Shown here in pieces: positions 27,361 through 40,396 of a stretch of DNA of 64,000 nucleotides (positions are counted from its first letter, which is position 1; every line of letters starts with the position of its first letter). The DNA is from a phage: sequence record PX418213.1. The stretch is one strand, 5' to 3'. Position numbers and translations under genes: made by a program. Below the pieces are notes generated by a model. It was not told the origin of the DNA. It made no database searches and was given only the letters and a program-made list of their open reading frames with translations.

Positions 27361-27447
27361 TGGTGCTGGGCACAGGATTCGAACCTGCAATGGGATTACT
27401 CCTCCTGATTACAAATCAGGTGCATTCAACCATTCTGCCAACCCAGC
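27361..27447 (-). tRNA. tRNA with long extra arm, anticodon TGT (Thr-type) in arm CCTGA-TTTGTAA-TCAGG
   Basis: 87 nt; acceptor GCTGGGT/GCCCAGC; T-arm GCAGG-TTCGAAT-CCTGT; class-II-like length unusual for Thr. Confidence 0.5.
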
Positions 27448-28660: not shown

Positions 28661-29029
28661 AATTGAAAACTCGCAGGGTTAGCGAAACCATCCTCAATTA
28701 GCATGTTCTAGAATACTAATCAAGTTATCTCCTATTGCACGCAGCTCAAGACGAGTACGAATTTTCAATTGTGGCGGCTCTCCGAAACTCTTCTACTCTA
28801 GCCTTAGCAGCTTACTCCCGAACGCATGTCGGGAAAGTCTTACTAAGAGTATCAAATAGCACCGTTACACTTTGAGCCATAGGTGTATCAAGAAGCAGAA
28901 GGACTTGAACCTTCACGAGATAGACCATTTATCTCAGCCGCTTTATGAGGTATGTTGCGGGGAGTGGATGTTCCCCATAAACCTTTTAGGCAGCCCCGTC
29001 TACCGATTCCGGCATACTTCAAGATTTTT
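28661..29029 (-). ncRNA. non-coding stretch with isolated T-arm-like hairpin
   Basis: GAAGG-TTCAAGT-CCTTC hairpin near 28898-28914 with no matching acceptor stem; GGGGA..TCCCC hairpin at 28958-28975. Confidence 0.3.
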
Positions 29030-29693: not shown

Positions 29694-29784
29694 TGGCGGA
29701 AGAGGAGAGATTTGAACTCTCAAGCCGTTTTACCAGTCAGCCACTTTCCAAGCGGTTTTCGTCGCCAATTCGATTTGCTCTTCC
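29694..29784 (-). tRNA. tRNA-Ser (GGA), tentative
   Basis: 91 nt; acceptor GGAAGAG/CTCTTCC; T-arm GAGAG-TTCAAAT-CTCTC; long variable arm. Confidence 0.55.
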
Positions 29785-30057: not shown

Positions 30058-30295
30058 AAATTCTTTAGTTTACTAAGGCTATTAGCTCGGCGCAACTACA
30101 GCACCTTCGCTTCGAGCGGAAGGAACTGCGTCATCTCGCAAACCCAATACACTATTCAGTTGCCGCTGAATCTAGTGGACTAATCTAGAACTTCTCCCGA
30201 ATCGTAGGGATCGTGCTTTTTGGCAGCCAGTCCTAGGTCGAGCTAATACCTTAGTGAACTATGATGAGGATTTCTCCTCATCAATTTATATAAAT
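30058..30295 (-). ncRNA. structured leader / candidate ncRNA at 5' end of tRNA transcript
   Basis: no ORF; long-range complement AGGCTATTAGCTCG (30076-30089) with CGAGCTAATACCT (30239-30251); local hairpins. Confidence 0.35.
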
Positions 30296-30324
30296 ATTAT
30301 AACAAGAAATTAAGCATCAAGCAA
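30296..30324 (-). promoter_or_regulatory. T5-type promoter driving tRNA cluster segment
   Basis: TTGCTT, 17 bp, TATAAT; overlaps 3' end of CDS 30317-30685. Confidence 0.55.
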
Positions 30325-30685
30325 GTACATTTTTAGCGATTTCTTGCAGTTCCTTTACATCACGAACGTAAAGGTAATCAGAGCTTCCAGAGTGCATACT
30401 TTGCATAACTACACCTTCATCTGGTGCATTATCCTTCAGAGTAATTCCTAACCAGAACTCGGCAAAACTAGGTGTTATCTCACCTTGACTTGCCTTGAAT
30501 ACATCATATTCTGTAAGTTCTTGACCAGTAGATAATCCCAAATAGACAGAACTAAGATCTATCTCTTTATGAGACTCATAAAACTCCGTTAGATCTTTCT
30601 CCATATCCCAACCATGCTGTAACGCGAACTCCATTGCCACATGACTGAAATAACCTTGAATCTTGCTTGATAATTGCATTTGCAA
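30317..30685 (-). CDS. hypothetical protein
   Basis: 122-aa ORF starting with TTG. Confidence 0.5.
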   Translation of the reverse strand: MQMQLSSKIQGYFSHVAMEFALQHGWDMEKDLTEFYESHKEIDLSSVYLGLSTGQELTEYDVFKASQGEITPSFAEFWLGITLKDNAPDEGVVMQSMHSGSSDYLYVRDVKELQEIAKNVLA

Positions 30686-30704
30686 TTCCTTATTTTGAGT
30701 TAAT

Positions 30705-30778
30705 TGGTACTCGGTGATAGAATCGAACTATCGCAATCGCCGTGTAAAGACGGGGTTCTCCCATTAAACTAACCGAGC
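30705..30778 (-). tRNA. tRNA-Val (TAC), tentative
   Basis: acceptor GCTCGGT/ACCGAGT; T-arm GATAG-TTCGATT-CTATC; loop TTTACAC. Confidence 0.5.
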
Positions 30779-30782
30779 AATT

Positions 30783-30861
30783 TGGTAGATCGCCTGGGAC
30801 TCGAACCCAGAACCTTCCGATTAAAAGTCGGATGCTACTAAACCTATTGAGCTAGCGATCT
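30783..30861 (-). tRNA. tRNA-Lys (TTT)
   Basis: anticodon arm TCCGA-CTTTTAA-TCGGA; acceptor AGATCGC/GCGATCT. Confidence 0.7.
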
Positions 30862-30862
30862 A

Positions 30863-31030
30863 TTAGTAACCATTGTATACTTCTTTAATAGAGTGAATTT
30901 TCAAGTAAGGGTGATTAGTATTAAACTCTGCCATTACTTCATCCCAATTTTTACCGTAATGAGCGAGTAAGGATTTTGATGTATTCTTACCTAAACGTTT
31001 GTCACTTACTACTAATCGAAATACTTTCAT
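30863..31030 (-). CDS. small hypothetical protein (55 aa)
   Basis: hand-translated MKVFRLVVSDKRLGKN...; AGAGGA RBS. Confidence 0.4.
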   Translation of the reverse strand: MKVFRLVVSDKRLGKNTSKSLLAHYGKNWDEVMAEFNTNHPYLKIHSIKEVYNGY

Positions 31031-31050
31031 TTCGAAATCCTCTATTAAAA

Positions 31051-31128
31051 TGGAAGCGGGTGCAGGAATCGAACCTACCTCTTTCTAGCTTATGAGACTA
31101 GTGATCTCTACCAGAGATCTAACCCGCA
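31051..31128 (-). tRNA. tRNA, anticodon CAT (Met/fMet/Ile2)
   Basis: anticodon arm CTAGT-CTCATAA-GCTAG; T-arm GTAGG-TTCGATT-CCTGC; irregular acceptor end. Confidence 0.55.
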
Positions 31129-31134
31129 ATTGTT

Positions 31135-31212
31135 TGGTCTCCGTGGGAGGATTTGAACCCCCGACCCTATCGCCCCAAACGAAACGCTCTGGCCAAACTG
31201 AGCTACACGGAG
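31135..31212 (-). tRNA. tRNA-Pro (TGG)
   Basis: acceptor CTCCGTG/CACGGAG; D-arm GCTCAGTTTGGCCAGAGC; loop TTTGGGG. Confidence 0.6.
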
Positions 31213-31216
31213 AATA

Positions 31217-31375
31217 TTATTTCTTCAACCACAACAAAGATAAGCCCAACATACTAAAGCCGCTAACTAATCCGATACATTTTTCTTCTATAGTAAAAGT
31301 ATCTAGATTAAATGCTGTTATAGCTATTGGCATACACCATAATGCCATAAAAACTTGAGCTATCTTGTGTTTCAT
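31217..31375 (-). CDS. small membrane protein (52 aa)
   Basis: hand-translated MKHKIAQVFMALWCMPIAITAF...; GAAGGAAAG RBS; promoter directly upstream. Confidence 0.4.
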   Translation of the reverse strand: MKHKIAQVFMALWCMPIAITAFNLDTFTIEEKCIGLVSGFSMLGLSLLWLKK

Positions 31376-31407
31376 TTTGCTTTCCTTCTCTTCACTTTAT
31401 AAGATAT

Positions 31408-31436
31408 ATTATACAGAGAATTAAGCAGAATAGCAA
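31408..31436 (-). promoter_or_regulatory. T5-type strong sigma70 promoter
   Basis: TTGCTA, 17 bp, TATAAT. Confidence 0.6.
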
Positions 31437-31439
31437 ATG

Positions 31440-31828
31440 AATTTTTAATAAATTTACTTATTGTGTAGGCCACCTGGAGGCTACCAACCCCACGGCTGAC
31501 AAAGAAGTTTGCGAGACCTCTCTTAAATGCCAGAATAGACCCGCCGATCTATCGGAACCTACATAATAAGTAAACTTTATAGTGTCATTCTAGACAGGAC
31601 TCGAACCTGTTATCACTTGTGCGGACTTACGAGAACCATTCTTTCACTCGAATCGAACGAGCTTCTGCCCTAGCCAAGCTGGTTTCCCCATCAACCACGC
31701 TAGAATGTTTGATTGTTTTCAGTGCAAGAGTCCGAGTCTTGGACACGACCGCTTCGCAAGTACATAGGCAGCTTATCATGAGTCAGCACTTCCGAATTGC
31801 TAGCTCCGTGTTCTGCACTGAAATTTTG
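31440..31828 (-). ncRNA. structured non-coding region with tRNA-like elements
   Basis: no ORF; D-arm-like TGGTT-GATGGGGA-AACCA; two T-arm-like hairpins (CTCG-TTCGATT-CGAG and ACAGG-TTCGAGT-CCTGT); ATTCTAG/CTAGAAT complement about 120 nt apart; separate stem TTCAGTGCA/TGCACTGAA (31719-31727 with 31812-31820). Confidence 0.35.
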
Positions 31829-32176
31829 TTAATTTAATAGTAAAGTACGATCTACTTCACCATTAATTGTTCGGCACTCTTCTGGGATTGCTGGTGTAGC
31901 CTTATATTCCCACCATTCAGAACCGTCGTATTCACCACGTTCTAACCAAGTTCCGTCAGTAAACCATACATTACCATAAAGCAATTGCCCACCGAAACCC
32001 GAGTCATATTTAAAGTCTAGATTATTTAGAAAATCTTCAATATCTTTTTCTGTATAACCTACGGGCAATACCCAAACTTCTTTGTCTCCATAATAACCGA
32101 ATTCTATCTTAATACACTTAACTTCAGAATTAGTATTCTTTAGGGCAAGTAACAACTCTTCTTTAGCATTAATCAT
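31829..32176 (-). CDS. hypothetical protein
   Basis: 115-aa ORF. Confidence 0.5.
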   Translation of the reverse strand: MINAKEELLLALKNTNSEVKCIKIEFGYYGDKEVWVLPVGYTEKDIEDFLNNLDFKYDSGFGGQLLYGNVWFTDGTWLERGEYDGSEWWEYKATPAIPEECRTINGEVDRTLLLN

Positions 32177-32202
32177 AGCATATTTCTCGTGCTAGTTTAA
32201 TT

Positions 32203-32278
32203 TGGTACACCCACTAGGACTTGAACCTAGAACCCTCCGCTTAAGAGGCGGTAGCTCTAACCATTGAGCTATGGATGT
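32203..32278 (-). tRNA. tRNA, anticodon CTT (Lys-type), tentative
   Basis: acceptor ACATCCA/TGGGTGT; D-arm GCTCAATGGTTAGAGC; loop CTCTTAA. Confidence 0.5.
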
Positions 32279-32279
32279 A

Positions 32280-32438
32280 TTAAATTACTTTTTCCAGTTC
32301 ATCAGCTATGGCTTTGATTTTTTCAAAGTTTACATCACTTATAATGATACCTTCCAGTGACAGAGATATTCTAGCATTTTTCATAGCAGATTCTTTTATC
32401 TGCTCTATCTCTTCTGGAGTAAACTCCCTACGTTCCAT
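32280..32438 (-). CDS. small hypothetical protein (52 aa)
   Basis: hand-translated MERREFTPEEIEQIKESAMKNARISL...; AAGGTAGG RBS. Confidence 0.4.
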   Translation of the reverse strand: MERREFTPEEIEQIKESAMKNARISLSLEGIIISDVNFEKIKAIADELEKVI

Positions 32439-32455
32439 AGCTAACCTACCTTATT

Positions 32456-32532
32456 TGGCGCGACCGATGGGATTCGAACCCACATTCCCTCCCGTGACAG
32501 GGGAGTACCATTACCAAGCCAGCCCCGGTCGC
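32456..32532 (-). tRNA. tRNA-Asp (GTC)
   Basis: acceptor GCGACCG/CGGTCGC; anticodon arm CTCCC-CTGTCAC-GGGAG. Confidence 0.75.
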
Positions 32533-32541
32533 ATAATTCAT

Positions 32542-32727
32542 TTACTCAGCTTTGAGTTTTTCAATAGCTGCATTAAGTTCCTTAAGAAACTCTTTTCGTA
32601 CATTAAGACGATTAAGACTTACTAGTATATCATGTTTAAGTTCTTCGATGTATTTCTTCTCAACTTCAATATTGTTGAGAGTGCTATCACGATGAACCTC
32701 TAGCTGCGCAATTACATTCTTGGACAT
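32542..32727 (-). CDS. small coiled-coil protein
   Basis: 61-aa ORF. Confidence 0.4.
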   Translation of the reverse strand: MSKNVIAQLEVHRDSTLNNIEVEKKYIEELKHDILVSLNRLNVRKEFLKELNAAIEKLKAE

Positions 32728-32829
32728 GCTTGTTTCCTCAGTTATTAATGAAAATGGTATCTGTGGCTGAATTCGATGTCAGCAATGATAGCTGGTTGGC
32801 TACCGGTTTACTTAACTCTACACAGAATT

Positions 32830-32912
32830 TGGCGGGCCGTGTAGGATTCGAACCTACGTTGTCTTTCGACATGGATTAACAGTCCACCGCCAAACCGCTT
32901 GGCTAACGACCC
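32830..32912 (-). tRNA. tRNA, anticodon GTT (Asn-type) with 13-nt extra arm
   Basis: 83 nt; acceptor GGGTCGT/ACGGCCC; anticodon arm GTGGA-CTGTTAA-TCCAT; variable GTCGAAAGACAAC. Confidence 0.55.
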
Positions 32913-33064
32913 TAAATTTATATTGCTGACTAGGATTTTCACCTAGACGGAGTTAGCACCGTAGCGTGTAGCGGCATACCTCTCCAAACCGTGCCTCATC
33001 TTTCAATTACGGAGACAGTGTTCCTACGCGTGCCTGAATTGATTTAACAATTCTTTCAGCAAAT

Positions 33065-33140
33065 TGGACGACCGCATGAGATTTGAACTCACATAAAAAG
33101 GATTTGCAATCCTTCGCCTAAGCCATTCAGCCAACGGTCG
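33065..33140 (-). tRNA. tRNA-Cys (GCA)
   Basis: anticodon arm AAGGA-TTGCAAA-TCCTT; acceptor CGACCGT/GCGGTCG. Confidence 0.7.
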
Positions 33141-33188
33141 ATTTATCTTGTTCTGTCATGTTGCTTCTCCAGTTCAATTTATGTAATT

Positions 33189-33217
33189 ATTATACAGAAC
33201 TTTTGGAAACTAAGCAA
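33189..33217 (-). promoter_or_regulatory. T5-type promoter upstream of tRNA-Cys
   Basis: TTGCTT, 17 bp, TATAAT. Confidence 0.6.
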
Positions 33218-33497
33218 CTACATTTTTTAAGAATTTGATGCCTTTCTTTTTCTTCTTATATTTCCACGTTAATGGATTCTGTCGATTATGAACGCTTGAG
33301 ATCTTCGTCTCGTCAAAGTTCTTCAATATCATGTAATCACAAGATAATTGTTCTAGTGGAATGTGATCACCGTCAAAAGCGTATACATAGGGCTGTTGAC
33401 TAGCACGATAATGATAGACTTTGTTAATTCTACGTTTCAGCGACTTATCCGCGCAGTAAATAAAGAAGTTTTCAGGATGCATCAGCAGCTCCTTCAA
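33210..33497 (-). CDS. hypothetical protein
   Basis: 95-aa ORF. Confidence 0.5.
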   Translation of the reverse strand: MKELLMHPENFFIYCADKSLKRRINKVYHYRASQQPYVYAFDGDHIPLEQLSCDYMILKNFDETKISSVHNRQNPLTWKYKKKKKGIKFLKNVVA

Positions 33498-33499
33498 TT

Positions 33500-33574
33500 T
33501 GGTGCACCCTGTTCGTATCGAACGAACCTCTCAAGCTCTTCAGGCAAGCGCTAATCCATCTCAGCTAAAGGTGC
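33500..33574 (-). tRNA. tRNA, anticodon ambiguous (GAA-Phe or CTG)
   Basis: acceptor GCACCTT/AGGGTGC; T-arm GTTCG-TTCGATA-CGAAC; anticodon stem irregular. Confidence 0.45.
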
Positions 33575-33580
33575 AAATTT

Positions 33581-33660
33581 TGGCAAACCTACTAGGACTC
33601 GAACCTAGACCGTACGGTTTTGGAGACCGACATGCTGTCCAGTAACACTCTAGGAATGCA
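33581..33660 (-). ncRNA. tRNA-like element with mismatched acceptor
   Basis: T-arm CTAGG-TTCGAGT-CCTAG, variable hairpin ACCGTACGGT, 3' TAGGTTT-G-CCA; 5' strand pairs at only 5 of 7 positions. Confidence 0.35.
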
Positions 33661-33665
33661 GGAAT

Positions 33666-33742
33666 TGGCGTCCTGTGCGGGGGTCGAACCCGCAAATCCT
33701 ACCTTGAAAGGGTAGTGACTTTACCAGTTTGTCTAACAGGAC
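33666..33742 (-). tRNA. tRNA-Glu (TTC)
   Basis: acceptor GTCCTGT/ACAGGAC; anticodon arm CTACC-CTTTCAA-GGTAG. Confidence 0.75.
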
Positions 33743-33748
33743 TTAAAT

Positions 33749-33835
33749 TGGTGGGGAAAGATGGAGTCGAACCACCCGAGTCGCAATGACAACTGATTTA
33801 CAGTCAGCTCTGCTACCACTTACAGAATATTTCCC
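33749..33835 (-). tRNA. tRNA-Tyr (GTA)
   Basis: long-arm tRNA; acceptor GGGGAAA/TTTCCCC; anticodon arm GCTGA-CTGTAAA-TCAGT. Confidence 0.7.
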
Positions 33836-33967
33836 CATATTTAGAAGTATTCAAAAAATTCTAATTTAAACACTTTTAAATATGTTTCCAAATTAGGTAA
33901 CTATTATACCAAGTTTTAAGGCACTGAGCAAGTCAAATTTTAAAGAACTTGCTCAGTGCTGTATTGG

Positions 33968-34243
33968 TTAGTCGAACTTAGGAGTGACAGTTAAGGAGAA
34001 TGGAAGTTCGAAAACTTCTTCACCCTCATTACTAACAGTAATTACACGACCTTTAAGTTCAGACATTGAAATATCAATATCAGCTTTTGCATCCGGAGCC
34101 ATGCCAGCTTCAACACATTTAGCTTTAATTTCCGGCAGAAGTTCTACATCATAGAAATAAAGCCATTCAATCTCACCTTCCCAGCCTTCCCAGGATTTAC
34201 AGATTGCACTTTCAATACCAGCTGCTATAACACGATTTTGCAT
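33968..34243 (-). CDS. hypothetical protein
   Basis: 91-aa ORF. Confidence 0.5.
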   Translation of the reverse strand: MQNRVIAAGIESAICKSWEGWEGEIEWLYFYDVELLPEIKAKCVEAGMAPDAKADIDISMSELKGRVITVSNEGEEVFELPFSLTVTPKFD

Positions 34244-34273
34244 TCATTAACTCCTTCATCAATTTATATAACT

Positions 34274-34303
34274 ATTATATCAGAAATTTAAAGCAAAAGG
34301 CAA
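34274..34303 (-). promoter_or_regulatory. T5-type sigma70 promoter
   Basis: TTGCCT, 18 bp, TATAAT. Confidence 0.5.
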
Positions 34304-34333
34304 GTACATTTTTAAAAATTCTGTTTGGAGGAG

Positions 34334-34540
34334 CTAAACTCCAGATTCTTCAGCCAAGTCTAGGCTAATAAGAGATATAGCCATAATTGCCGCTCCATGT
34401 TCTTTTTCTCCAGTCTCTTTAGCTAGAGTTATAATGTCAAGAAATTGCTTATGAAAATCTGCAACCTCTTGAGTTATACCTGCCTCAGCAATCATGCCTT
34501 TAAGCATAAAACGTTGTGCAGTAATTTCAGGATTAGCCAT
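34334..34540 (-). CDS. hypothetical protein
   Basis: 68-aa ORF. Confidence 0.45.
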   Translation of the reverse strand: MANPEITAQRFMLKGMIAEAGITQEVADFHKQFLDIITLAKETGEKEHGAAIMAISLISLDLAEESGV

Positions 34541-34700
34541 GTTGTTTCTCCAGTTTCATCTTTAATAGTCTACAAATAAAATCAATGTCTTCATCCGTGC
34601 CTAGATCTCTGTCTTCAAGAGTTGCCTTGAAGTTTTTAGTCAATTCCATGAGGATAACTTCCCTAGAACGACGTGTTGGCGGAGGTGGATGTCTATACAT
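34533..34700 (-). CDS. small hypothetical protein (55 aa)
   Basis: hand-translated MYRHPPPPTRRSREV...; AAGGAAA RBS; stop overlaps next start. Confidence 0.4.
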   Translation of the reverse strand: MYRHPPPPTRRSREVILMELTKNFKATLEDRDLGTDEDIDFICRLLKMKLEKQHG

Positions 34701-34715
34701 CTTATTTCCTTAATT

Positions 34716-34792
34716 TGGTAGGGGTGGTGGGATTCGAACCCACAAAACCTGAATTTTAAGTCCAGTACCTATGCCAATTCGATTACACCCCC
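34716..34792 (-). tRNA. atypical tRNA, anticodon TAA (Leu codon) but class-I length
   Basis: 77 nt; acceptor GGGGGTG/CACCCCT; D-loop GAATTGG; anticodon arm CTGGA-CTTAAAA-TTCAG; no long variable arm. Confidence 0.5.
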
Positions 34793-34893
34793 ATGTAATC
34801 AGTTTATTAGTTGATACATATTATAGCCTAGTGAAAATCCTACTACTAGTCCCACAAACCAACCAATATAATAATCTTTTAGTTTCACAGGTA

Positions 34894-35079
34894 TTATCCT
34901 CTTTCAATATCTAGAGAAATACCACAGTTAGGATTAATACCTGTACCCTTGCAATTTGGGCAAATCCATATATTGCAAAAAGTATCTCCTGCTTCTGCAT
35001 CAGAACTTTCACCAATTCCCCTACACTCAGGGCAGGCGCATTCTTCTAGCTCTTGCTTGAGTTCTTGAAACTTGGACAT
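34894..35079 (-). CDS. small zinc-ribbon-like protein
   Basis: 61 aa; CPECRG...CPNCKG. Confidence 0.5.
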   Translation of the reverse strand: MSKFQELKQELEECACPECRGIGESSDAEAGDTFCNIWICPNCKGTGINPNCGISLDIERG

Positions 35080-35088
35080 ATAGTCTCC

Positions 35089-35277
35089 TTAGTTAATTAC
35101 TTTTGAGGCTTCTAAAGCATTAACGTAGTAAACATCTTCTACATTATACATATAGTCTACTACTTTGTCCATAGCATGGAGTTCGGATGTAGCCTTTACT
35201 AGTCTGTACCCTTGTTTAAACTCGTCCGAACGTTCTCTATCTTGTGCAAATTTAACAGAAACTATGAATAATTCCAT
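35089..35277 (-). CDS. hypothetical protein
   Basis: 62-aa ORF. Confidence 0.45.
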   Translation of the reverse strand: MELFIVSVKFAQDRERSDEFKQGYRLVKATSELHAMDKVVDYMYNVEDVYYVNALEASKVIN

Positions 35278-35296
35278 TAATTGTCCTTATTTAATT

Positions 35297-35374
35297 TGGT
35301 GGCTCCCCGAGGATTCGAACCTACGTACCTTCCGGTTATGAGCCGGGTGCTCATACCATATGAGCTTGAGAACC
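35297..35374 (-). tRNA. tRNA, anticodon CAT (Met/Ile2)
   Basis: acceptor GGTTCTC/GGGAGCC with G-U pairs; loop CTCATAA; T-stem has mismatches. Confidence 0.5.
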
Positions 35375-35380
35375 AAAATC

Positions 35381-35469
35381 TGGCGGAAGAAGTGGGAATC
35401 GAACCCACAAGGCTATATTTCAAACCGACAGATTAGCAATCTGCTGCAATACCGTTATGCTATTCTTCC
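35381..35469 (-). tRNA. tRNA-Ser (GCT)
   Basis: 89 nt long-arm tRNA; acceptor GGAAGAA/TTCTTCC; anticodon arm GCAGA-TTGCTAA-TCTGT. Confidence 0.65.
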
Positions 35470-35484
35470 GAATTTATAAGATAT

Positions 35485-35513
35485 ATTATATTAGAAATTT
35501 AGCTTCATAGCAA
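35485..35513 (-). promoter_or_regulatory. T5-type promoter upstream of tRNA-Ser(GCT)
   Basis: TTGCTA, 17 bp, TATAAT. Confidence 0.6.
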
Positions 35514-36060
35514 GAAAATTTTTCAAGTTTTCGGTAGACATCTCATCCATATCTACGGGAGAAACAAAGCCGTTTAATTTTCTAGCAAATTTTTCACCTG
35601 CAGGGTCATTATCCCCAACAGCTACCAATTTAAAAGGTAGTAATTTCAGTTGCTTTAATAATGCTTTTCCTGGAGAAGAACCCAACATTGCCAGGGCTGG
35701 ATAACCAGCGTTATGTAGCGCCACTGCCTTAAATACAGACTCAGCAATCAATACTACTTTTTCATCTCCATTGAGAGTTTCTAGTCCCCATACACACTGG
35801 GTAGTAGAATAAGTAAAATATTTAGCTTCAAAGGGGCACTTACCATGACCTTTTGGAGCAGAAGGATTATAAGTTTGATAGCCCCTCAACATCCCAGAGA
35901 AGTCATACAACGGGACTGTTAGCCATCCTTCCGGACTTAACCAGCAATGATATTTATCTGTATCAAATCCTCTAGATAAGAGGTGCTGTGTTAGCTCATC
36001 AACATTCATATTTGGTTCCTCTCTCAAATTTATAGATATATTATACTGAGAATTTAGCAT
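35491..36060 (-). CDS. Toprim-domain protein (primase-like fragment)
   Basis: VLIAESVFKAVAL...VAVGDNDPAGEKF resembles DnaG-type Toprim E...DxD motifs; only 189 aa. Confidence 0.55.
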   Translation of the reverse strand: MLNSQYNISINLREEPNMNVDELTQHLLSRGFDTDKYHCWLSPEGWLTVPLYDFSGMLRGYQTYNPSAPKGHGKCPFEAKYFTYSTTQCVWGLETLNGDEKVVLIAESVFKAVALHNAGYPALAMLGSSPGKALLKQLKLLPFKLVAVGDNDPAGEKFARKLNGFVSPVDMDEMSTENLKNFLAMKLNF

Positions 36061-36068
36061 TCAAGCAA
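36040..36068 (-). promoter_or_regulatory. T5-type strong sigma70 promoter
   Basis: TTGCTT, 17 bp, TATAAT. Confidence 0.6.
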
Positions 36069-36184
36069 TCAAATTTTTTAACTTTTTAGAGGAAAATCAT
36101 AGGGCACTTAAGGGTAGCAGATAAGTGGTGAGGACCAAAATTTGTGACCCCACTAAAAATTCAGGGGCAATTTTTAAAGACCCC

Positions 36185-36213
36185 TTGACATTTTCGCTGG
36201 GGTAGTGTAAAGT
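36185..36213 (+). promoter_or_regulatory. sigma70-type promoter for plus-strand three-gene module
   Basis: TTGACA (36185-36190), 17-bp spacer, TAAAGT; AGGAGG RBS before 36266. Confidence 0.4.
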
Positions 36214-36265
36214 ATATGTTATGGATGAGTGATCAAAGAGACACACATTTTCTATATACTAGGAG

Positions 36266-37261
36266 GTGTCAAAAATGACAGAAGAAGTAGCTAAGAGTCC
36301 TGAGACCGTCGCTAGCGTTGCAGCAGAACTGCACCGTCACGAGGAATCAGATAAGAAAAAGTGGGAGAAGGTCAGAGCCTACGAAGAAAAACATCGTGAA
36401 CACGATGATGAAGAAGATGACGATGATGAACATTGTCATAAATATGGAAAACATAAAATGCAAGAACCAGTAAACGTATTTACTAGTGGCTTCCCTGGCC
36501 TACTGGGTGGTTACCCAGCAAACGCAGGTGCTTTCGGTGGTGAAGGTATGGGACTATTCGGAGCTATCCTAATCGGTGCTCTATTAACAGGCGGATTCGG
36601 TGGATTCGGTGGATTCGGTGGACGTGGTATAGTTGGTGAAGGTACCGCAGTTGATGCAGTACTTCAGAACCAAGATACCGCTAGTATTCTAGCAGCTATT
36701 AACACTACTCGTACAGAAGCTAATCAGGGTACTGGGGCTGTTTTAAGCGCAGTTAACAATGGTTTTAGCCAGACATCCCAAAACCAGAGCCGTGATACTC
36801 AGTCTGTACTAACTACGATCTATGGTACAGGTGCTAATCTGTCTAATCAGATCTGCCAGGAAACTCGCAATGTTATTCAGGGTCAGTTCGATCTTTCTCG
36901 CCAGATTGATCAATCTTTCGCAGCTAATCAGATAGCTCGTGCACAAGATAAGTTTGATTCTGCACAGATCGCTTTCCAGCAGACTTTACAAACTAATAAC
37001 CAGTTTGCCGCTGTTCAGGCTCAGATGTGTGCTAACCAGAACTCTCTGGAACGTCAGATCGCTGAATGTTGCTGTGAACTTCAGACTGCGATCGCTGGTG
37101 TAACTACTGCGCGTATCCAGGATGAGTTAGACGCATGTCGCCTACGTGAAGCAATCGCTGCGGGTAGCGGTGCTAACGGTCAGGTAATTAATCAAATCGC
37201 TTTAAGTCTTGGTGCTATCACTCAGACTCTGGCTGGTCTGCAGGCTAAACTGCCGGCTTAA
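36266..37261 (+). CDS. glycine-zipper membrane protein with Q/N-rich coiled-coil-like tail
   Basis: 331 aa; His/acid-rich N-terminus (HREHDDEEDDDDEHCH); GLFGAILIGALLTGGFGGFGGFGG; long Q/N/S/T-rich region with ECCCE. Confidence 0.6.
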   Translation: MSKMTEEVAKSPETVASVAAELHRHEESDKKKWEKVRAYEEKHREHDDEEDDDDEHCHKYGKHKMQEPVNVFTSGFPGLLGGYPANAGAFGGEGMGLFGAILIGALLTGGFGGFGGFGGRGIVGEGTAVDAVLQNQDTASILAAINTTRTEANQGTGAVLSAVNNGFSQTSQNQSRDTQSVLTTIYGTGANLSNQICQETRNVIQGQFDLSRQIDQSFAANQIARAQDKFDSAQIAFQQTLQTNNQFAAVQAQMCANQNSLERQIAECCCELQTAIAGVTTARIQDELDACRLREAIAAGSGANGQVINQIALSLGAITQTLAGLQAKLPA

Positions 37262-37282
37262 TATTAAGGGGAGGAGCCCATT

Positions 37283-37699
37283 ATGAGTAAATATGGTTTT
37301 GTAAATAACGGACTTAATCAAAGTATGGGCTCCCAGCAGCCCGTTCCGGGTCTGGATAACCCCTACTTACAACAGTTGCAACAGCGTTTAGCAGAAGCGC
37401 AACAGATGCAGCAACAACTCCAGCAAAACCCTGGAAGTGTAAGTCCTATGCAAATGATGCAGCAAATGAGCGGGCAGTCGCAAATGTCTCAACAAATGCA
37501 GCAACAGATGCCGCAGCAGCAAGTTCAACAACAAACCCAACAACCGCAGGTTTCTGCGGAAGGACAGGCAGTACTAGCCCTTTTCGAAGACTTCGCAAAG
37601 ACAGAGGATGGGAAACAGCTTGTATCACTTATGGGTAAGTTTAATAGCTTCTGCCAAAGCCAAGTTGCAAAAGCTCAAAATGGTGGTAATAACTCCTAA
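37283..37699 (+). CDS. Gln/Met-rich low-complexity protein
   Basis: 138 aa; central QQLQQRLAEAQQMQQQLQQ...QQMQQQMPQQQVQQQTQQPQ; GGAGG RBS. Confidence 0.55.
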   Translation: MSKYGFVNNGLNQSMGSQQPVPGLDNPYLQQLQQRLAEAQQMQQQLQQNPGSVSPMQMMQQMSGQSQMSQQMQQQMPQQQVQQQTQQPQVSAEGQAVLALFEDFAKTEDGKQLVSLMGKFNSFCQSQVAKAQNGGNNS

Positions 37700-37708
37700 G
37701 GAGAAATT

Positions 37709-37903
37709 ATGTGTTGCAGAAAATCTGTTTCGTGCTGCCCAATGCCTGTAGCACGTTGTTGCTCTCCAGCAATGTTTACGCAAATACCGGCGTTCAATCC
37801 GTTTGCCTTTAAGCCTACTCTTATCCTGCCCCCTAGAGTGGATTTTCAGTCAAGATTGGCCTCCCGTATGGGTGGTTGCTGTACACCGAGAGTGTGGTTC
37901 TAA
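37709..37903 (+). CDS. small Cys-doublet-rich peptide
   Basis: 64 aa with four CC doublets (MCCRKSVSCCPMPVARCC...GGCC); AGGAGA RBS; followed by terminator. Confidence 0.45.
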   Translation: MCCRKSVSCCPMPVARCCSPAMFTQIPAFNPFAFKPTLILPPRVDFQSRLASRMGGCCTPRVWF

Positions 37904-37913
37904 ACCAAAAACA

Positions 37914-37950
37914 AAAGCCCCTGCCGAAAGGTAAGGGGCTTTTTCTTTTG
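37914..37950 (+). terminator. rho-independent terminator
   Basis: AGCCCCT...AGGGGCT hairpin followed by TTTTTCTTTT. Confidence 0.65.
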
Positions 37951-37959
37951 CCTTAAATA

Positions 37960-37994
37960 CAGAAAAGCCCGCGCTCTCGGAGGAAACGCGGGCT
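37960..37994 (-). terminator. rho-independent terminator for SPFH gene
   Basis: GCCCGCG...CGCGGGC hairpin with U-run on minus strand. Confidence 0.6.
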
Positions 37995-38018
37995 TGGTTC
38001 GAAGATTACGTGTAACTA

Positions 38019-38966
38019 TTACTTGTTACGCATATCCATGATCATTTGACCATCGTAGCCAGTACCTACCACAGTCTGAGGTACACCACCTTGATATTTC
38101 TGAGCACGAATCATCTCAACTTCCAGTTGTTTCCAACGAATCATCTCAGGAGTAATAGTACGTTGCAATGCGGCGTTAGCTTCAGCTTCTTTCTTAGCTG
38201 CGTACAGTTTAGCATCTGCGTCACGTTCATTAGCAATAGCTTGGTTGTTGCGAGCTTCACGATCTGCTTCTGCTTGTTTAACCTTCTGCTGTGCTTCTTG
38301 TTCAACACGAGCCAGTTCAGCTTTTGCAGCATTAACTTGCTCTTCACGAACTTTGGTATTCTGTACCTGCTCCATGATTACCGGTGGCAAAGTAATATCC
38401 TGAAGGAACACCTGCTTAACTGTGTAACCATATGGGCGTGCATACTCTTCAACTTCCTGTTGAATTGCAGTTTGCAATTGAGCCTGAATTTTAGCATCAA
38501 ACAAATCTTGTGCTTTAGGTACAGACTTACCAAACTCACGAATAGTAGACAGTAATTTTTCAGTTACATATTTGTCTAACGCTTGATCCTGAGTACCTGC
38601 ATTAATACGGTTAATCGGTGCCTTAGAACCATCAAACTGCAACATAACAGTCAGGTCAACAGTGGATTTAAACTTATCCTGACTAGGAACCTGAAGTTTA
38701 TCTAATTTTAGAGCAATATCTTTTGTACTAAAAGTATCGAAAGAAGCAAAAGGATTTACAATATGAAAGCCGGGTAATACTGGATTAGGGTCTACTTTAC
38801 CCAGGAAAGTCTGGGTTTTAACAGTACCGTCTTGAACAACAGTATAGGAGTTAAGGGCCAGAACTAAACCTACCAAACCAACTGCAGCACCAATACCCCA
38901 ACGTTTGATATTACGCATCAATTTTTGCTCATAAGTCAGTTCTTTAGTGTTTTTAGTAGCAAACAT
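38019..38966 (-). CDS. SPFH/band-7 (prohibitin/HflKC-like) membrane protein
   Basis: 315 aa; N-terminal TM (WGIGAAVGLVGLVLAL); band-7-like core; C-terminal coiled coil. Confidence 0.65.
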   Translation of the reverse strand: MFATKNTKELTYEQKLMRNIKRWGIGAAVGLVGLVLALNSYTVVQDGTVKTQTFLGKVDPNPVLPGFHIVNPFASFDTFSTKDIALKLDKLQVPSQDKFKSTVDLTVMLQFDGSKAPINRINAGTQDQALDKYVTEKLLSTIREFGKSVPKAQDLFDAKIQAQLQTAIQQEVEEYARPYGYTVKQVFLQDITLPPVIMEQVQNTKVREEQVNAAKAELARVEQEAQQKVKQAEADREARNNQAIANERDADAKLYAAKKEAEANAALQRTITPEMIRWKQLEVEMIRAQKYQGGVPQTVVGTGYDGQMIMDMRNK

Positions 38967-39599: not shown

Positions 39600-40396
39600 T
39601 CTAAGTATTTTTAAGAATTCTCATAAAAACTCTTAAAAATACAGACGATACCGGGAGAGTCATAAGTCTCACTCATTAAGTATTTCAAGACAAAATACGG
39701 TAACGTCTATTATTTTCCAGTTTAAGTCAGGGTGACTTAGTGGTTATGTCCTGCGGTATATTGAGGACTCGGTTAGGCTTGGGGTCATGACTTCCCACCT
39801 TTTGCTGCTACTCAACAGGAGTTATCGCGAATTACCTGTGCTATTGTGCACCATTAGTGACATCTCTCATGTCAGCATTTCCCACTTTGTGGATAGCTTG
39901 AAAAACTACTCCGATATGGAGAAAGAACTTCACTATCCTAGAATACCTTCTAAAGTTCTTCTTTAGCCTGGACATAGTTAAATCGTAATAAAACTATTCA
40001 GCAGACTGGTTGGTTAGTCTGGAACCAACTACCGCGTGGTTTAGGCAGTGCGCAACTAACCTCGGAAGCTTTTACGTTAAAAGCACCAGTTATCCAGTTC
40101 TTACCGACCGTAGGATTCGAACCTACATCTTCCACCAGTTACGACTTGATAATACCAATTATACTAGGACGGCAGTGTTACTACATAAGTGATTTCCACA
40201 CCCCACTATTTATAAATTAGAGAAGAGTTTAGGGGAGAGGTTTCAGACGCCTCATTTTACACGTTCTAGCCACTAACCGGGATTGCCGCCCCCTGTGTAC
40301 TAGTTTTACAACTAACCCACCGACTCTATTCAATGCGCTCCGCTTGGGATTCTGCACTCAGCGTAATCGGCTCGCTGTTCCCTAATTTATGAATAT
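39600..40396 (-). ncRNA. about 800-nt non-coding transcribed region with degenerate tRNA-like element
   Basis: no ORF of 60 aa or more; lies between promoter 40397-40425 and gene 39084-39584; T-loop GGTTCGAATCC at 40113-40123 with imperfect acceptor. Confidence 0.3.

What the first reader, a model, noticed from the sequence alone, without database searches (positions are those of the whole stretch)
31440..31828. About 390-nt non-coding region with tRNA-like parts that do not form a canonical tRNA
On the minus strand there is a D-arm-like hairpin, two T-arm-like hairpins and a 7-nt acceptor-like complement (ATTCTAG/CTAGAAT) separated by ~120 nt, too far for a normal tRNA. A separate 9-bp stem (TTCAGTGCA at 31719-31727 with TGCACTGAA at 31812-31820) encloses an ~85-nt hairpin-rich domain. 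Candidates: a tRNA interrupted by an intervening sequence, a tRNA-derived regulatory RNA, or a processing scaffold.
Basis: seen in the sequence. Interest (0 to 1): 0.6.

Follow-up and report, generated by a model that had tools for sequence, protein, structure and literature searches.

The report
Known phage T5 tRNA-like stable RNAs
The stretch holds three small structured RNAs from the tRNA-gene region of a T5-like phage; two are already annotated in phage T5 (the tRNA-like RNA2, and RNAIV) with unknown function, so it is real but not new.

Summary
The window is a T5-like phage (Demerecviridae), and 31440-31828 lies in its tRNA-gene cluster on the minus strand.

It is three tandem RNA modules, not one RNA:
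- A (31708-31827): a spacer with a 10-bp terminal stem, not annotated in T5.
- B (31583-31707): the ortholog (96% identical) of T5 RNA2, annotated 'tRNA-like stable RNA with unknown functions'.
- C (31462-31564): the ortholog (98%) of T5 RNAIV. The P13a-like early promoter follows it.

RNA2 is a cloverleaf supported by covariation (25 of 34 pairs compensated, 0/500 shuffles). Its anticodon loop is replaced by a 55-nt arm capped with a second T-loop. That arm carries the nearly invariant sequence GAAUGGUUC-N-CGUAA.

I found the same RNA in Klebsiella, Pantoea, Yersinia and Enterobacter T5-likes, in T4-like Acinetobacter phage 133, and in uncultured large phages. It always lies among tRNA genes. 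No Rfam family matches it.

It is not an intron-containing tRNA, a tmRNA or a coding region. Function is unknown. My best inference is a non-decoding tRNA-body mimic, matured by the tRNA-processing enzymes, that acts in trans. The region is dispensable in laboratory T5.

Novelty: already known. Interest: modest.

The parts
31708..31827 (-). Module A: a conserved structured spacer between the stop codon of the upstream ORF (31829-32176) and RNA2. A 10-bp terminal stem (31814-31823 with 31717-31726) encloses 87 nt of hairpins and is followed by ACA. Not annotated in T5.
   Evidence: Inverted repeat. MFE fold (z = -1.7). 99.2% identical to T5. Present full-length at 92.6% identity or more in 220 phage records, with no distant relatives. 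The few substitutions fall mostly in predicted loops, but some break predicted pairs. No covariation test is possible.
31583..31707 (-). RNA2 ortholog: a 125-nt tRNA-like RNA. It runs from C(-1), through a cloverleaf with an extended arm, to the 3' tail GACA.
   Evidence: 96% identical over the full length to the T5 misc_RNA rna2 (T5s06). Covariance model R1 scores it 152 bits, against 29 bits or less for genuine tRNAs in the same search. Covariation.
31700..31706 (-). RNA2 acceptor stem, 5' strand AUUCUAG. It pairs with 31587-31593. The C at 31707 and the G at 31586 add an eighth pair.
   Evidence: All 7 pairs show compensatory changes across homologs; 96% of cells are paired.
31680..31697 (-). 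RNA2 D-arm: UGGUU-GAUGGGGA-AACCA.
   Evidence: All 5 pairs are compensated; 98% of cells are paired. The arm is lost in the T4-like versions.
31615..31679 (-). RNA2 'anticodon' stem (31675-31679 with 31615-31619) enclosing the 55-nt module (31620-31674) that replaces the anticodon loop. The module contains GGGY:RUCC, a 2-3 bp helix, a UAA bulge, an invariant loop and the T' hairpin.
   Evidence: The stem has 5 of 5 pairs compensated. GGGY:RUCC covaries C-G to U-A. The N of CNCGUAA covaries with the third base after GGGY as A-U, U-A, G-C and C-G.
31646..31662 (-). T' hairpin: a second T-arm, GCUCG-UUCGAUU-CGAGU.
   Evidence: Stem variants GCUCG, UACGG, GUUGG, GAUGG, UAUGG and CUCGG keep the four inner pairs fully compensated. 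The outermost pair is mismatched in three lineages. The loop UUCRAUU is invariant.
31627..31645 (-). Nearly invariant single-stranded core GAAAGAAUGGUUC-N-CGUAA.
   Evidence: AAUGG and C-N-CGUAA are identical in every T5-like, T4-like and metagenomic member found; the leading GAAAG and the GGUU spacing vary in the Klebsiella-type group.
31594..31610 (-). RNA2 T-arm: ACAGG-UUCGAGU-CCUGU, directly followed by the acceptor 3' strand at 31587-31593.
   Evidence: 3 of 5 pairs are compensated; 97% of cells are paired.
31462..31564 (-). RNAIV ortholog (103 nt). It is the inner part of a 128-nt hairpin domain (31450-31577) with a 20-bp basal duplex and three inner hairpins.
   Evidence: 98% identical to the T5 misc_RNA rnaIV (T5s05). 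z = -5.3. RNAalifold predicts 45 pairs, 9 with compensatory changes. Inverted repeat I1.
31408..31436 (-). Sigma-70 early promoter for the downstream small ORF (31217-31375) and the tRNA-Pro and tRNA-Met genes: TTGCTA, 17 nt, TATAAT. Equivalent to T5 P13a.
   Evidence: Promoter scan, 10 of 12 matches. T5 annotates promoter P13a at the homologous place.

Best explanation
The 390-nt stretch is a row of three separately folded non-coding RNA modules in the tRNA-gene region of a T5-like phage, read on the minus strand.

Shown:
- Modules B and C are orthologs of the annotated T5 stable RNAs RNA2 and RNAIV.
- Module A is a very conserved structured spacer that T5 does not annotate.
- RNA2 has a tRNA acceptor stem, D-arm, 'anticodon' stem and T-arm.
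- Its anticodon loop is replaced by a 55-nt arm. From the stem outward the arm is: GGGY:RUCC, a UAA bulge, a 2-3 bp helix, an invariant loop GAAAGAAUGGUUC, and a second T-arm.
- It therefore has no anticodon and cannot decode.

Inferred:
- The modules are transcribed with the neighbouring tRNAs from upstream early promoters.
- They are cut out by the host tRNA-processing machinery. RNase P would cut at the 5' end of RNA2. An RNase III-type cut in the 20-bp duplex would release RNAIV.
- The tRNA frame gives RNA2 its processing signals and stability.
- The invariant arm is the working part. It most likely forms a second tRNA-elbow-like surface, with the GG of the loop docking on the second T-loop.
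- RNA2 would then act in trans as a tRNA-body mimic that binds or titrates a tRNA-binding host or phage factor. It would help only in some hosts.
- Module A, left at the 3' end of the upstream mRNA after RNase P cleavage, may simply protect that mRNA from 3' exonucleases.
For: Identity:
- 426-482 T5-like phage records match the stretch.
- T5 RefSeq annotates rnaIV and rna2 at the homologous place, followed by promoter P13a. The BF23 and phage 5 records do the same.
- All T5 stable RNAs map to the window.

Structure:
- Model R1 separates 25 homologs (58-152 bits) from true tRNAs (30 bits or less).
- 93.5% of cells are paired and 25 of 34 pairs are compensated. 0 of 500 shuffles reach this; slid controls give 31-45%.
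- The four inner pairs of the T' stem are fully compensated across six stem variants.
- All four Watson-Crick combinations occur at the N position.

Selection on a trans-acting part:
- AAUGG and C-N-CGUAA are invariant from T5-likes to T4-like Acinetobacter phage 133 and uncultured 164-170 kb phages. The helices around them have changed sequence.

tRNA context:
- Every member lies inside a tRNA cluster.

Processing:
- The T5 RNA2 ends are C(-1) and GACA, flush with the acceptor stem.
- The T5 RNAIV ends lie opposite each other inside the 20-bp duplex.

Dispensability:
- T5Mos, with deletion 30661-38625, is viable (PMC11464382).
Against: - No expression or end-mapping data were available for this phage. 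'Stable RNA' rests on the depositors' annotation of T5, BF23 and phage 5.
- No binding partner or target is known.
- No similarity to any E. coli sequence was found, and no paper in the library gives a function.
- The docking of GG on the second T-loop is not testable by covariation, because both sides are invariant.
- The 3' CCA is encoded in only some members: Pantoea, Klebsiella and Enterobacter. T5-likes have ACA. The 3' end biology is therefore not uniform.
- Folding energy of RNA2 alone is not better than shuffles (z = -0.9).
- Module A has no covariation support at all.
Confidence: 0.55

Rival explanations
1. Processing punctuation only. RNA2, RNAIV and module A are structured spacers. 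Their only role is in cis: they give RNase P, RNase III and RNase E defined cutting sites in the long early transcripts and cap the neighbouring mRNAs and tRNAs against exonucleases. The stable fragments are by-products.
For: - The modules sit between tRNAs, small ORFs and promoters, and are shuffled as cassettes among relatives.
- Every T5 stable RNA has a terminal stem with a short 3' tail, as an RNase P or exonuclease stop would.
- The region is dispensable.
- Module A and RNAIV are found only in close relatives.
Against: - A pure punctuation element needs only the acceptor and T-arm helix.
- In RNA2 the unpaired nucleotides of the inner arm are the invariant part across Demerecviridae and T4-like phages, while the helices drift.
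- Genuine tRNAs next door already provide RNase P sites.
Confidence: 0.25
2. RNA2 enters the translation apparatus as a tmRNA-like or otherwise chargeable RNA. It is aminoacylated at its 3' end and used on the ribosome or by an aminoacyl-transferase.
For: - It has an acceptor stem, a T-arm and, in some members, an encoded NCCA end.
- As in the tRNA-like domain of tmRNA, the anticodon arm is replaced by a long helix.
- The T4-like versions have lost the D-stem.
Against: - ARAGORN finds no tmRNA and Rfam finds none.
- No reading frame is conserved, because indels shift it between lineages.
- There is no G3:U70 pair.
- T5-likes end in ACA, although every genuine tRNA of this phage encodes CCA.
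- Acceptor-stem sequences differ completely between lineages, so there is no conserved identity set.
Confidence: 0.05
3. RNA2 is a tRNA gene interrupted by an intervening sequence that is removed to give a working tRNA.
For: It has cloverleaf arms with an insert exactly at the anticodon loop.
Against: - T5 annotates the full 125-nt form as the stable RNA.
- The flanks of the insert cannot form a 7-nt anticodon loop with U33.
- The insert is only 55 nt and matches no intron family.
- The insert is more conserved than the 'exons'.
- No self-splicing or bulge-helix-bulge features are present.
Confidence: 0.03
4. The stretch encodes small proteins, as many GenBank records annotate ('hypothetical protein', 'excisionase').
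For: Mechanical ORFs of 72 aa (plus strand) and 50 aa (minus strand) exist. Annotations in many records cover the match.
Against: - No PHROG or Pfam match.
- One-nucleotide indels in close relatives break the frames.
- The substitution pattern is compensatory base-pairing, not codon-like.
- The ORFs straddle modules that occur separately in other phages.
Confidence: 0.02

Closest known systems
Phage T5 RNA2 (rna2, T5s06) and RNAIV (rnaIV, T5s05), also annotated in the BF23 and Salmonella phage 5 tRNA-region records
   Same: Same genes. RNA2 is 96% and RNAIV 98% identical over the full length. The order is the same: ORF, spacer, RNA2, RNAIV, promoter P13a, small ORF, tRNA-Pro, tRNA-fMet.
   Different: Nothing essential. 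The records give only 'stable RNA with unknown functions'. They annotate no structure and leave the 120-nt module A upstream of RNA2 unannotated.
Phage T4 species 1 and species 2 RNAs (rnaC, rnaD)
   Same: They are small stable RNAs of unknown function inside a phage tRNA cluster. The 3' part of rnaC has a tRNA-like acceptor stem, a T-arm and a UACA tail, like the GACA tail of RNA2.
   Different: No detectable homology to the conserved arm. Model R1 gives 15.9 bits, through the tRNA-like part only. The true relatives of RNA2 in T4-like phages are unannotated RNAs such as the one between tRNA-Gly and tRNA-Cys of Acinetobacter phage 133.
tRNA-like domain of tmRNA
   Same: It has an acceptor stem and a T-arm, with the anticodon arm replaced by a long helix. 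The D-stem is dispensable in some members.
   Different: RNA2 is 125 nt, not about 360. It has no tag reading frame, no pseudoknots and no G3:U70. ARAGORN and Rfam do not detect it.
Bacterial and phage Y-RNA-like tRNA mimics (YrlA); recalled from my own knowledge
   Same: They are non-coding RNAs that copy the T-arm and D-arm elbow of tRNA without decoding.
   Different: As I recall, in YrlA the acceptor and anticodon side is replaced by a Ro-binding stem. RNA2 keeps a full acceptor stem and carries a second T-loop. No Rfam family of any kind matches RNA2.
Engineered 'tRNA scaffold' for recombinant RNA expression; recalled from my own knowledge
   Same: A foreign structured RNA replaces the anticodon loop. 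The tRNA frame gives RNase P processing and stability in E. coli.
   Different: That system is man-made. RNA2 would be a natural example of the same principle, which is an inference.

Membership tests
T5 RNA2 (annotated stable RNA) | Full-length sequence orthology to T5 rna2 | tested here: met
   125 of 125 nt aligned at 96.0% identity. The window copy scores 152 bits with model R1.
T5 RNA2 (annotated stable RNA) | Same genomic position: between the tRNA-Asp-side ORF and promoter P13a, tRNA-Pro and tRNA-fMet | tested here: met
   973 nt are colinear with T5 at 88.5% identity. Feature order matches.
T5 RNA2 (annotated stable RNA) | Accumulates as a discrete stable ~125-nt transcript in infected cells | not testable with these tools
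   Only the depositors' note in the T5, BF23 and phage 5 records.
T5 RNAIV (annotated stable RNA) | Full-length sequence orthology and position just upstream of P13a | tested here: met
   103 of 103 nt aligned at 98.1% identity. The promoter lies 26 nt downstream.
Canonical tRNA (Rfam RF00005) | Acceptor stem, D-arm and T-arm with a T-loop UUCRANY and GG in the D-loop | tested here: met
   The helices are supported by covariation. The sequence shows UUCGAGU and GAUGGGGA.
Canonical tRNA (Rfam RF00005) | 7-nt anticodon loop with U33 closing a 5-bp anticodon stem; total length about 70-95 nt | tested here: not met
   The stem closes on a 55-nt structured module. Total length is 125 nt.
Canonical tRNA (Rfam RF00005) | Detected by tRNA finders or reaches the Rfam gathering score | tested here: not met
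   ARAGORN makes no call. There is no RF00005 match even at E up to 10.
tmRNA | Tag-peptide reading frame, pseudoknots, G3:U70, detection by ARAGORN or Rfam | tested here: not met
   Pair 3:70 is U-A or U-G. No frame is conserved.
Group I intron in a tRNA anticodon loop | Match to an intron model, and flanks that restore an anticodon loop | tested here: not met
   No Rfam intron match. The insert is only 55 nt. The flanks lack U33 and an anticodon.
T4 rnaC / rnaD | Sequence or structure homology to the T4 RNAs | tested here: not met
   Model R1 on the T4 region, filters off: 15.9 bits for rnaC through the tRNA-like part only, and nothing for rnaD.

The most novel reading that the evidence does not exclude
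RNA2 is the founding member of an unrecognised, widespread family of phage RNAs that has no Rfam family. It occurs in Demerecviridae, in some T4-like Straboviridae and in uncultured large phages. A tRNA frame displays a rigid arm with a second T-loop 'elbow' and the invariant GAAUGGUUC-N-CGUAA core. The RNA acts in trans as a tRNA-body mimic that sequesters a tRNA-binding factor. The factor could be a tRNA-targeting defence nuclease or toxin that reads the tRNA body rather than the anticodon, or a processing or modification enzyme. RNA2 would then be an RNA-based counter-defence or takeover factor.
Probability: 0.2. Interest if true: 0.7.

Novelty: already known. Interest (0 to 1): 0.33.

Why it matters
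[quoted passage not shown] Phage tRNA clusters are now known to counter tRNA-cleaving defences such as PARIS and retron Eco7.

This analysis does not discover the RNAs, but it narrows the question in three ways:
- RNA2 has a defined fold backed by covariation.
- RNA2 cannot decode.
- Its invariant 55-nt arm is shared by T5-like and T4-like phages.

These points name the nucleotides to mutate and the molecule to use as bait.

There is also a practical side. Many deposited T5-like genomes annotate 'hypothetical protein' or 'excisionase' over these RNAs, and these look like mis-annotations. A covariance model such as R1 would correct them.

Tried and rejected
- Rfam at gathering and at E up to 10, on the window copy and on the Acinetobacter and Klebsiella copies: nothing beyond chance.
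- ARAGORN: no tRNA or tmRNA here.
- Similarity of the conserved arm to E. coli genomes, looking for a host homolog or antisense target: no match.
- Literature: seven full-text searches found no paper on the function of T5 RNA2 or RNAIV. The Glukhov 2018 paper on T5 deletion mutants is not held.
- Anticodon-stem-loop mimic (CUCGUAA resembles a tRNA-Thr CGU loop): rejected. The 'U33' position is U, A, C or G in different lineages and base-pairs with the 5' side of the arm.
- A 4-bp AGAA:UUCU helix from the MFE fold of the T5 type: it is not kept in other lineages. Only the 2-3 bp register with the UAA bulge is conserved.
- Coding potential of the overlapping ORFs: rejected.
- Homology to T4 rnaC or rnaD: not detectable.
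- A parent tRNA for RNA2: no tRNA of this phage resembles its arms more than any other.
- Covariation for module A: impossible, because 220 copies are 92.6-100% identical.
- The RNAalifold interior of RNA2 was discarded. MAFFT shifted the T' hairpin by one column between lineages. The T' stem was re-scored by anchoring on the loop.

Full report
**What the window is.** The 481 bases around the finding match 426 phage records by megablast. Nearly all are T5-like Salmonella and Escherichia phages, and the best matches are 99% identical or more. The stretch lies in a dense cluster of 24 minus-strand tRNA genes separated by very small ORFs. It is colinear with the tRNA-gene region of phage T5: 973 nt at 88.5% identity.

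**Checking the observation.**
- The inverted-repeat scan gives three pairs:
  - CATTCTAG/CTAGAATG at 31586-31593 and 31700-31707, with 106 nt between the arms.
  - TTTCAGTGCA/TGCACTGAAA at 31717-31726 and 31814-31823, with 87 nt between.
- A 20-nt pair, 90% complementary, at 31450-31469 and 31558-31577.
These are small errors.
- Neither ARAGORN nor Rfam finds a tRNA, tmRNA or any other family here. This holds at gathering thresholds and at E up to 10.
- Thermodynamics alone is weak. The whole 391 nt folds only about 2 sd better than shuffles on either strand.
- Per module, z = -1.7 for A, -0.9 for B and -5.3 for C. The case for real structure therefore rests on comparison with relatives.

**It is already annotated in T5.**
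- A more sensitive BLAST showed that the T5 RefSeq record NC_005859 carries features under the match. These are rnaIV (T5s05, 103 nt, 'stable RNA with unknown functions') and rna2 (T5s06, 125 nt, 'tRNA-like stable RNA with unknown functions'). Promoter P13a follows them.
- The BF23 and Salmonella phage 5 tRNA-region records, which carry the same style of annotation, annotate the same two RNAs.
- The other T5 record, AY587007, annotates only a promoter there.
- Mapping all T5 stable RNAs onto the window gives:
  - RNA2 = 31583-31707, 96.0% identical.
  - RNAIV = 31462-31564, 98.1% identical.
  - The unannotated 120 nt between RNA2 and the upstream ORF = 31708-31827, 99.2% identical.
- A sigma-70 promoter (TTGCTA, 17 nt, TATAAT) lies at 31436-31408 on the minus strand. 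This corresponds to P13a.
- The finding is therefore three tandem modules plus a promoter, not one RNA. In BF23 a tRNA-Gly sits between RNA2 and RNAIV. In phage 5 an ORF does. Many Epseptimaviruses lack module A or have a tRNA-Gly inserted.

**RNA2 (module B): the family.**
- Pattern scans of viral, metagenome and genome collections, plus BLAST hits, gave about 25 distinct homologs.
- They come from:
  - Tequintavirus and Epseptimavirus.
  - Pantoea phage AAS21.
  - Klebsiella Sugarlandvirus-type phages.
  - Yersinia phiR2-01.
  - Enterobacter KKP_3711.
  - T4-like Acinetobacter phage 133, in the unannotated gap between tRNA-Gly and tRNA-Cys.
  - A 169,947-bp isolate contig and contigs of 164-167 kb.
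  - A soil metagenome contig.
- Every copy lies among tRNA genes.
- A covariance model (R1) scores these at 58-152 bits, while genuine tRNAs score 30 bits or less. The low but full-length tRNA hits confirm that the frame is tRNA-like.

**RNA2: the fold.**
- On the model-based alignment of 23 distinct sequences, 93.5% of cells are standard pairs and 25 of 34 pairs show compensatory double changes.
- No shuffle out of 500 reaches any of the five measures. Sliding the partners by 1-3 columns drops pairing to 31-45% (without the small helix).
- Support per helix:
  - Acceptor stem: 7 of 7 pairs compensated.
  - D-stem: 5 of 5.
  - 'Anticodon' stem: 5 of 5.
  - T-stem: 3 of 5.
- The anticodon loop is replaced by 55 nt. 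Anchoring on the loop sequence shows a second T-arm. Its stem appears as GCUCG, UACGG, GUUGG, GAUGG, UAUGG or CUCGG. The four inner pairs are fully compensated, the outermost pair is mismatched in three lineages, and the loop UUCRAUU is constant.
- GGGY pairs with RUCC, with Y:R covarying C-G to U-A.
- The one 'free' base in the conserved CNCGUAA pairs with the third base after GGGY. The pair is A-U in T5-likes, U-A in three T4-like copies, G-C in one contig and C-G in another. UAA is therefore a 3-nt bulge.
- The arm is thus a nearly continuous helix ending in a T-loop. It is interrupted by an asymmetric loop carrying GAAAGAAUGGUUC.
- AAUGG and C-N-CGUAA are identical in all lineages, although the surrounding helices have changed sequence. 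The leading GAAAG and the GGUU spacing vary in the Klebsiella-type group.
- I infer, but cannot test, that the invariant GG docks on the second T-loop as G18-G19 do in tRNA. That would give a second 'elbow'.

**What RNA2 is not.**
- Not an intron-containing tRNA:
  - The 125-nt form is what T5 annotates as the stable RNA.
  - The insert flanks cannot form an anticodon loop.
  - The insert is the best conserved part.
  - No intron model matches.
- Not a tmRNA:
  - No tag frame survives the indels between lineages.
  - Pair 3:70 is U-A or U-G.
  - The finders are negative.
- Not obviously chargeable. Every genuine tRNA of this phage ends in an encoded CCA, but RNA2 ends in GACA here and in T5. 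CCA is encoded only in the Pantoea, Klebsiella and Enterobacter versions. Acceptor sequences share no identity set.
- Not coding. The 72-aa and 50-aa ORFs have no PHROG or Pfam match, and single-base indels in close relatives break them.
- Not detectably related to T4 rnaC or rnaD. R1 gives 15.9 bits through the tRNA-like 3' part of rnaC only. No particular tRNA of the phage looks like its parent. The arm has no similar or complementary sequence in E. coli genomes.

**RNAIV (module C).**
- This is a 128-nt domain with a 20-bp basal duplex and three inner hairpins.
- It folds 5.3 sd better than shuffles.
- RNAalifold on 12 variants keeps 45 pairs, 9 of them with compensatory changes.
- The mature ends annotated in T5 (AUGUAGG...CCUACACA) lie opposite each other inside the duplex. 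This is what a staggered RNase III-type cut would leave. That is an inference.

**Module A.**
- It has a 10-bp terminal stem followed by ACA, which is the same plan as the other T5 stable RNAs.
- It is found full-length in 220 phage records at 92.6-100% identity and nowhere else.
- It is better conserved between this phage and T5 than RNA2 or RNAIV.
- The few substitutions fall mostly in predicted loops, but some break MFE-predicted pairs. There is no covariation to test.
- It starts right after the stop codon of the upstream ORF. In Epseptimaviruses it starts right after a tRNA-like RNA ending in CCA. It ends at the RNase P site of RNA2.
- A role as a 3' cap of the upstream transcript is plausible but unproven.

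**Mechanism and confidence.**
- Shown: identity with T5 RNA2 and RNAIV; the fold of RNA2; the lack of an anticodon; deep conservation of the arm; tRNA-cluster context.
- Inferred: co-transcription with tRNAs; maturation by RNase P and RNase III; a trans-acting role of the arm as a tRNA-body mimic.
- The region is dispensable in the laboratory. [quoted passage not shown] This fits an accessory, host-dependent role. It fits pure processing punctuation equally well, and that is the main rival.
- I give 0.55 to the overall statement. Its identity part I regard as near-certain, and I give about 0.3 to the mimic function specifically.

**Comparison and novelty.**
- The closest known things are the T5 RNAs themselves.
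- By analogy, the closest are T4 rnaC and rnaD, still 'of yet unknown functions' (PMC9697503); the tRNA-like domain of tmRNA; and, from my own knowledge, YrlA-type tRNA mimics and the engineered tRNA scaffold.
- The feature is already known. What this analysis adds is the fold backed by covariation, the family range beyond T5-likes, the absence of an Rfam family, and the conserved unannotated module A.
- Interest is modest.

Noticed in passing
window 28662-28767, 28772-28878, 28886-29023, 30077-30248, 32755-32827, 39602-40229 (all minus strand): The other T5 'stable RNAs of unknown function' are all present in this phage. RNAIII is 100% identical, RNAI 91%, RNA1 86%, RNA2H 98%, RNA3 100% and RNAX 92-96%. 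None has an Rfam family.
   Followed up: partly
window 28886-29023 (RNA1 ortholog); L038 4502-4645: T5 RNA1 contains UUGAGAUAAAUGGUCUAUCUCGUGA. This resembles the Klebsiella-type RNA2 arm (GGGUUGAGAU...AAAUGGUCUCGUAA) with the second T-arm deleted. RNA1 and RNA2 may be distant paralogs.
   Followed up: no
L005 1165-1250 (Salmonella phage PRF-SP13), also L057 and L058: In Epseptimaviruses the ORF upstream of module A is replaced by a ~90-nt tRNA-like RNA. It has a GGGGUCU...AGACUCC acceptor stem followed by ACCA, and a GGGAG/CUCCC arm with an 11-nt loop. One record calls it tRNA-Arg.
   Followed up: no
window 29694-29784 (-), 35297-35374 (-), 40102-40173 (-): tRNA-like sequences that ARAGORN does not call. 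The first is a 91-nt match to model R1 (20 bits). The other two reach the Rfam tRNA gathering score (40.3 and 35.5 bits). The last lies inside the RNAX region, where T5 annotates a pseudo-tRNA.
   Followed up: no
window 27361-27447 (-): tRNA-Thr(UGU) is 87 nt here, with an extra ~12 nt in the variable region. It is 75 nt in T5.
   Followed up: no
GenBank records H1-H30: Many deposited T5-like genomes annotate one to three 'hypothetical proteins', or an 'excisionase', across RNA2, RNAIV and module A. Given the RNA evidence these look like mis-annotations. Enterobacter phage KKP_3711 calls the 5' part of RNA2 'tRNA-Arg(ccg)'.
   Followed up: partly
L006 1407-1501 (T4 rnaC): The 3' two-thirds of T4 species 1 RNA aligns to the tRNA-like frame of model R1. 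It has a CGGAACG/CGUUUCG acceptor stem, a T-arm and a UACA tail. This echoes the GACA tail of T5 RNA2 and the AACA tail of the 164-kb contig L039.
   Followed up: no
window 30249-30704: Between RNA2H and tRNA-Val this phage carries about 350 nt more than T5, including a 122-aa ORF (30317-30685, minus strand) absent from T5 at that place.
   Followed up: no
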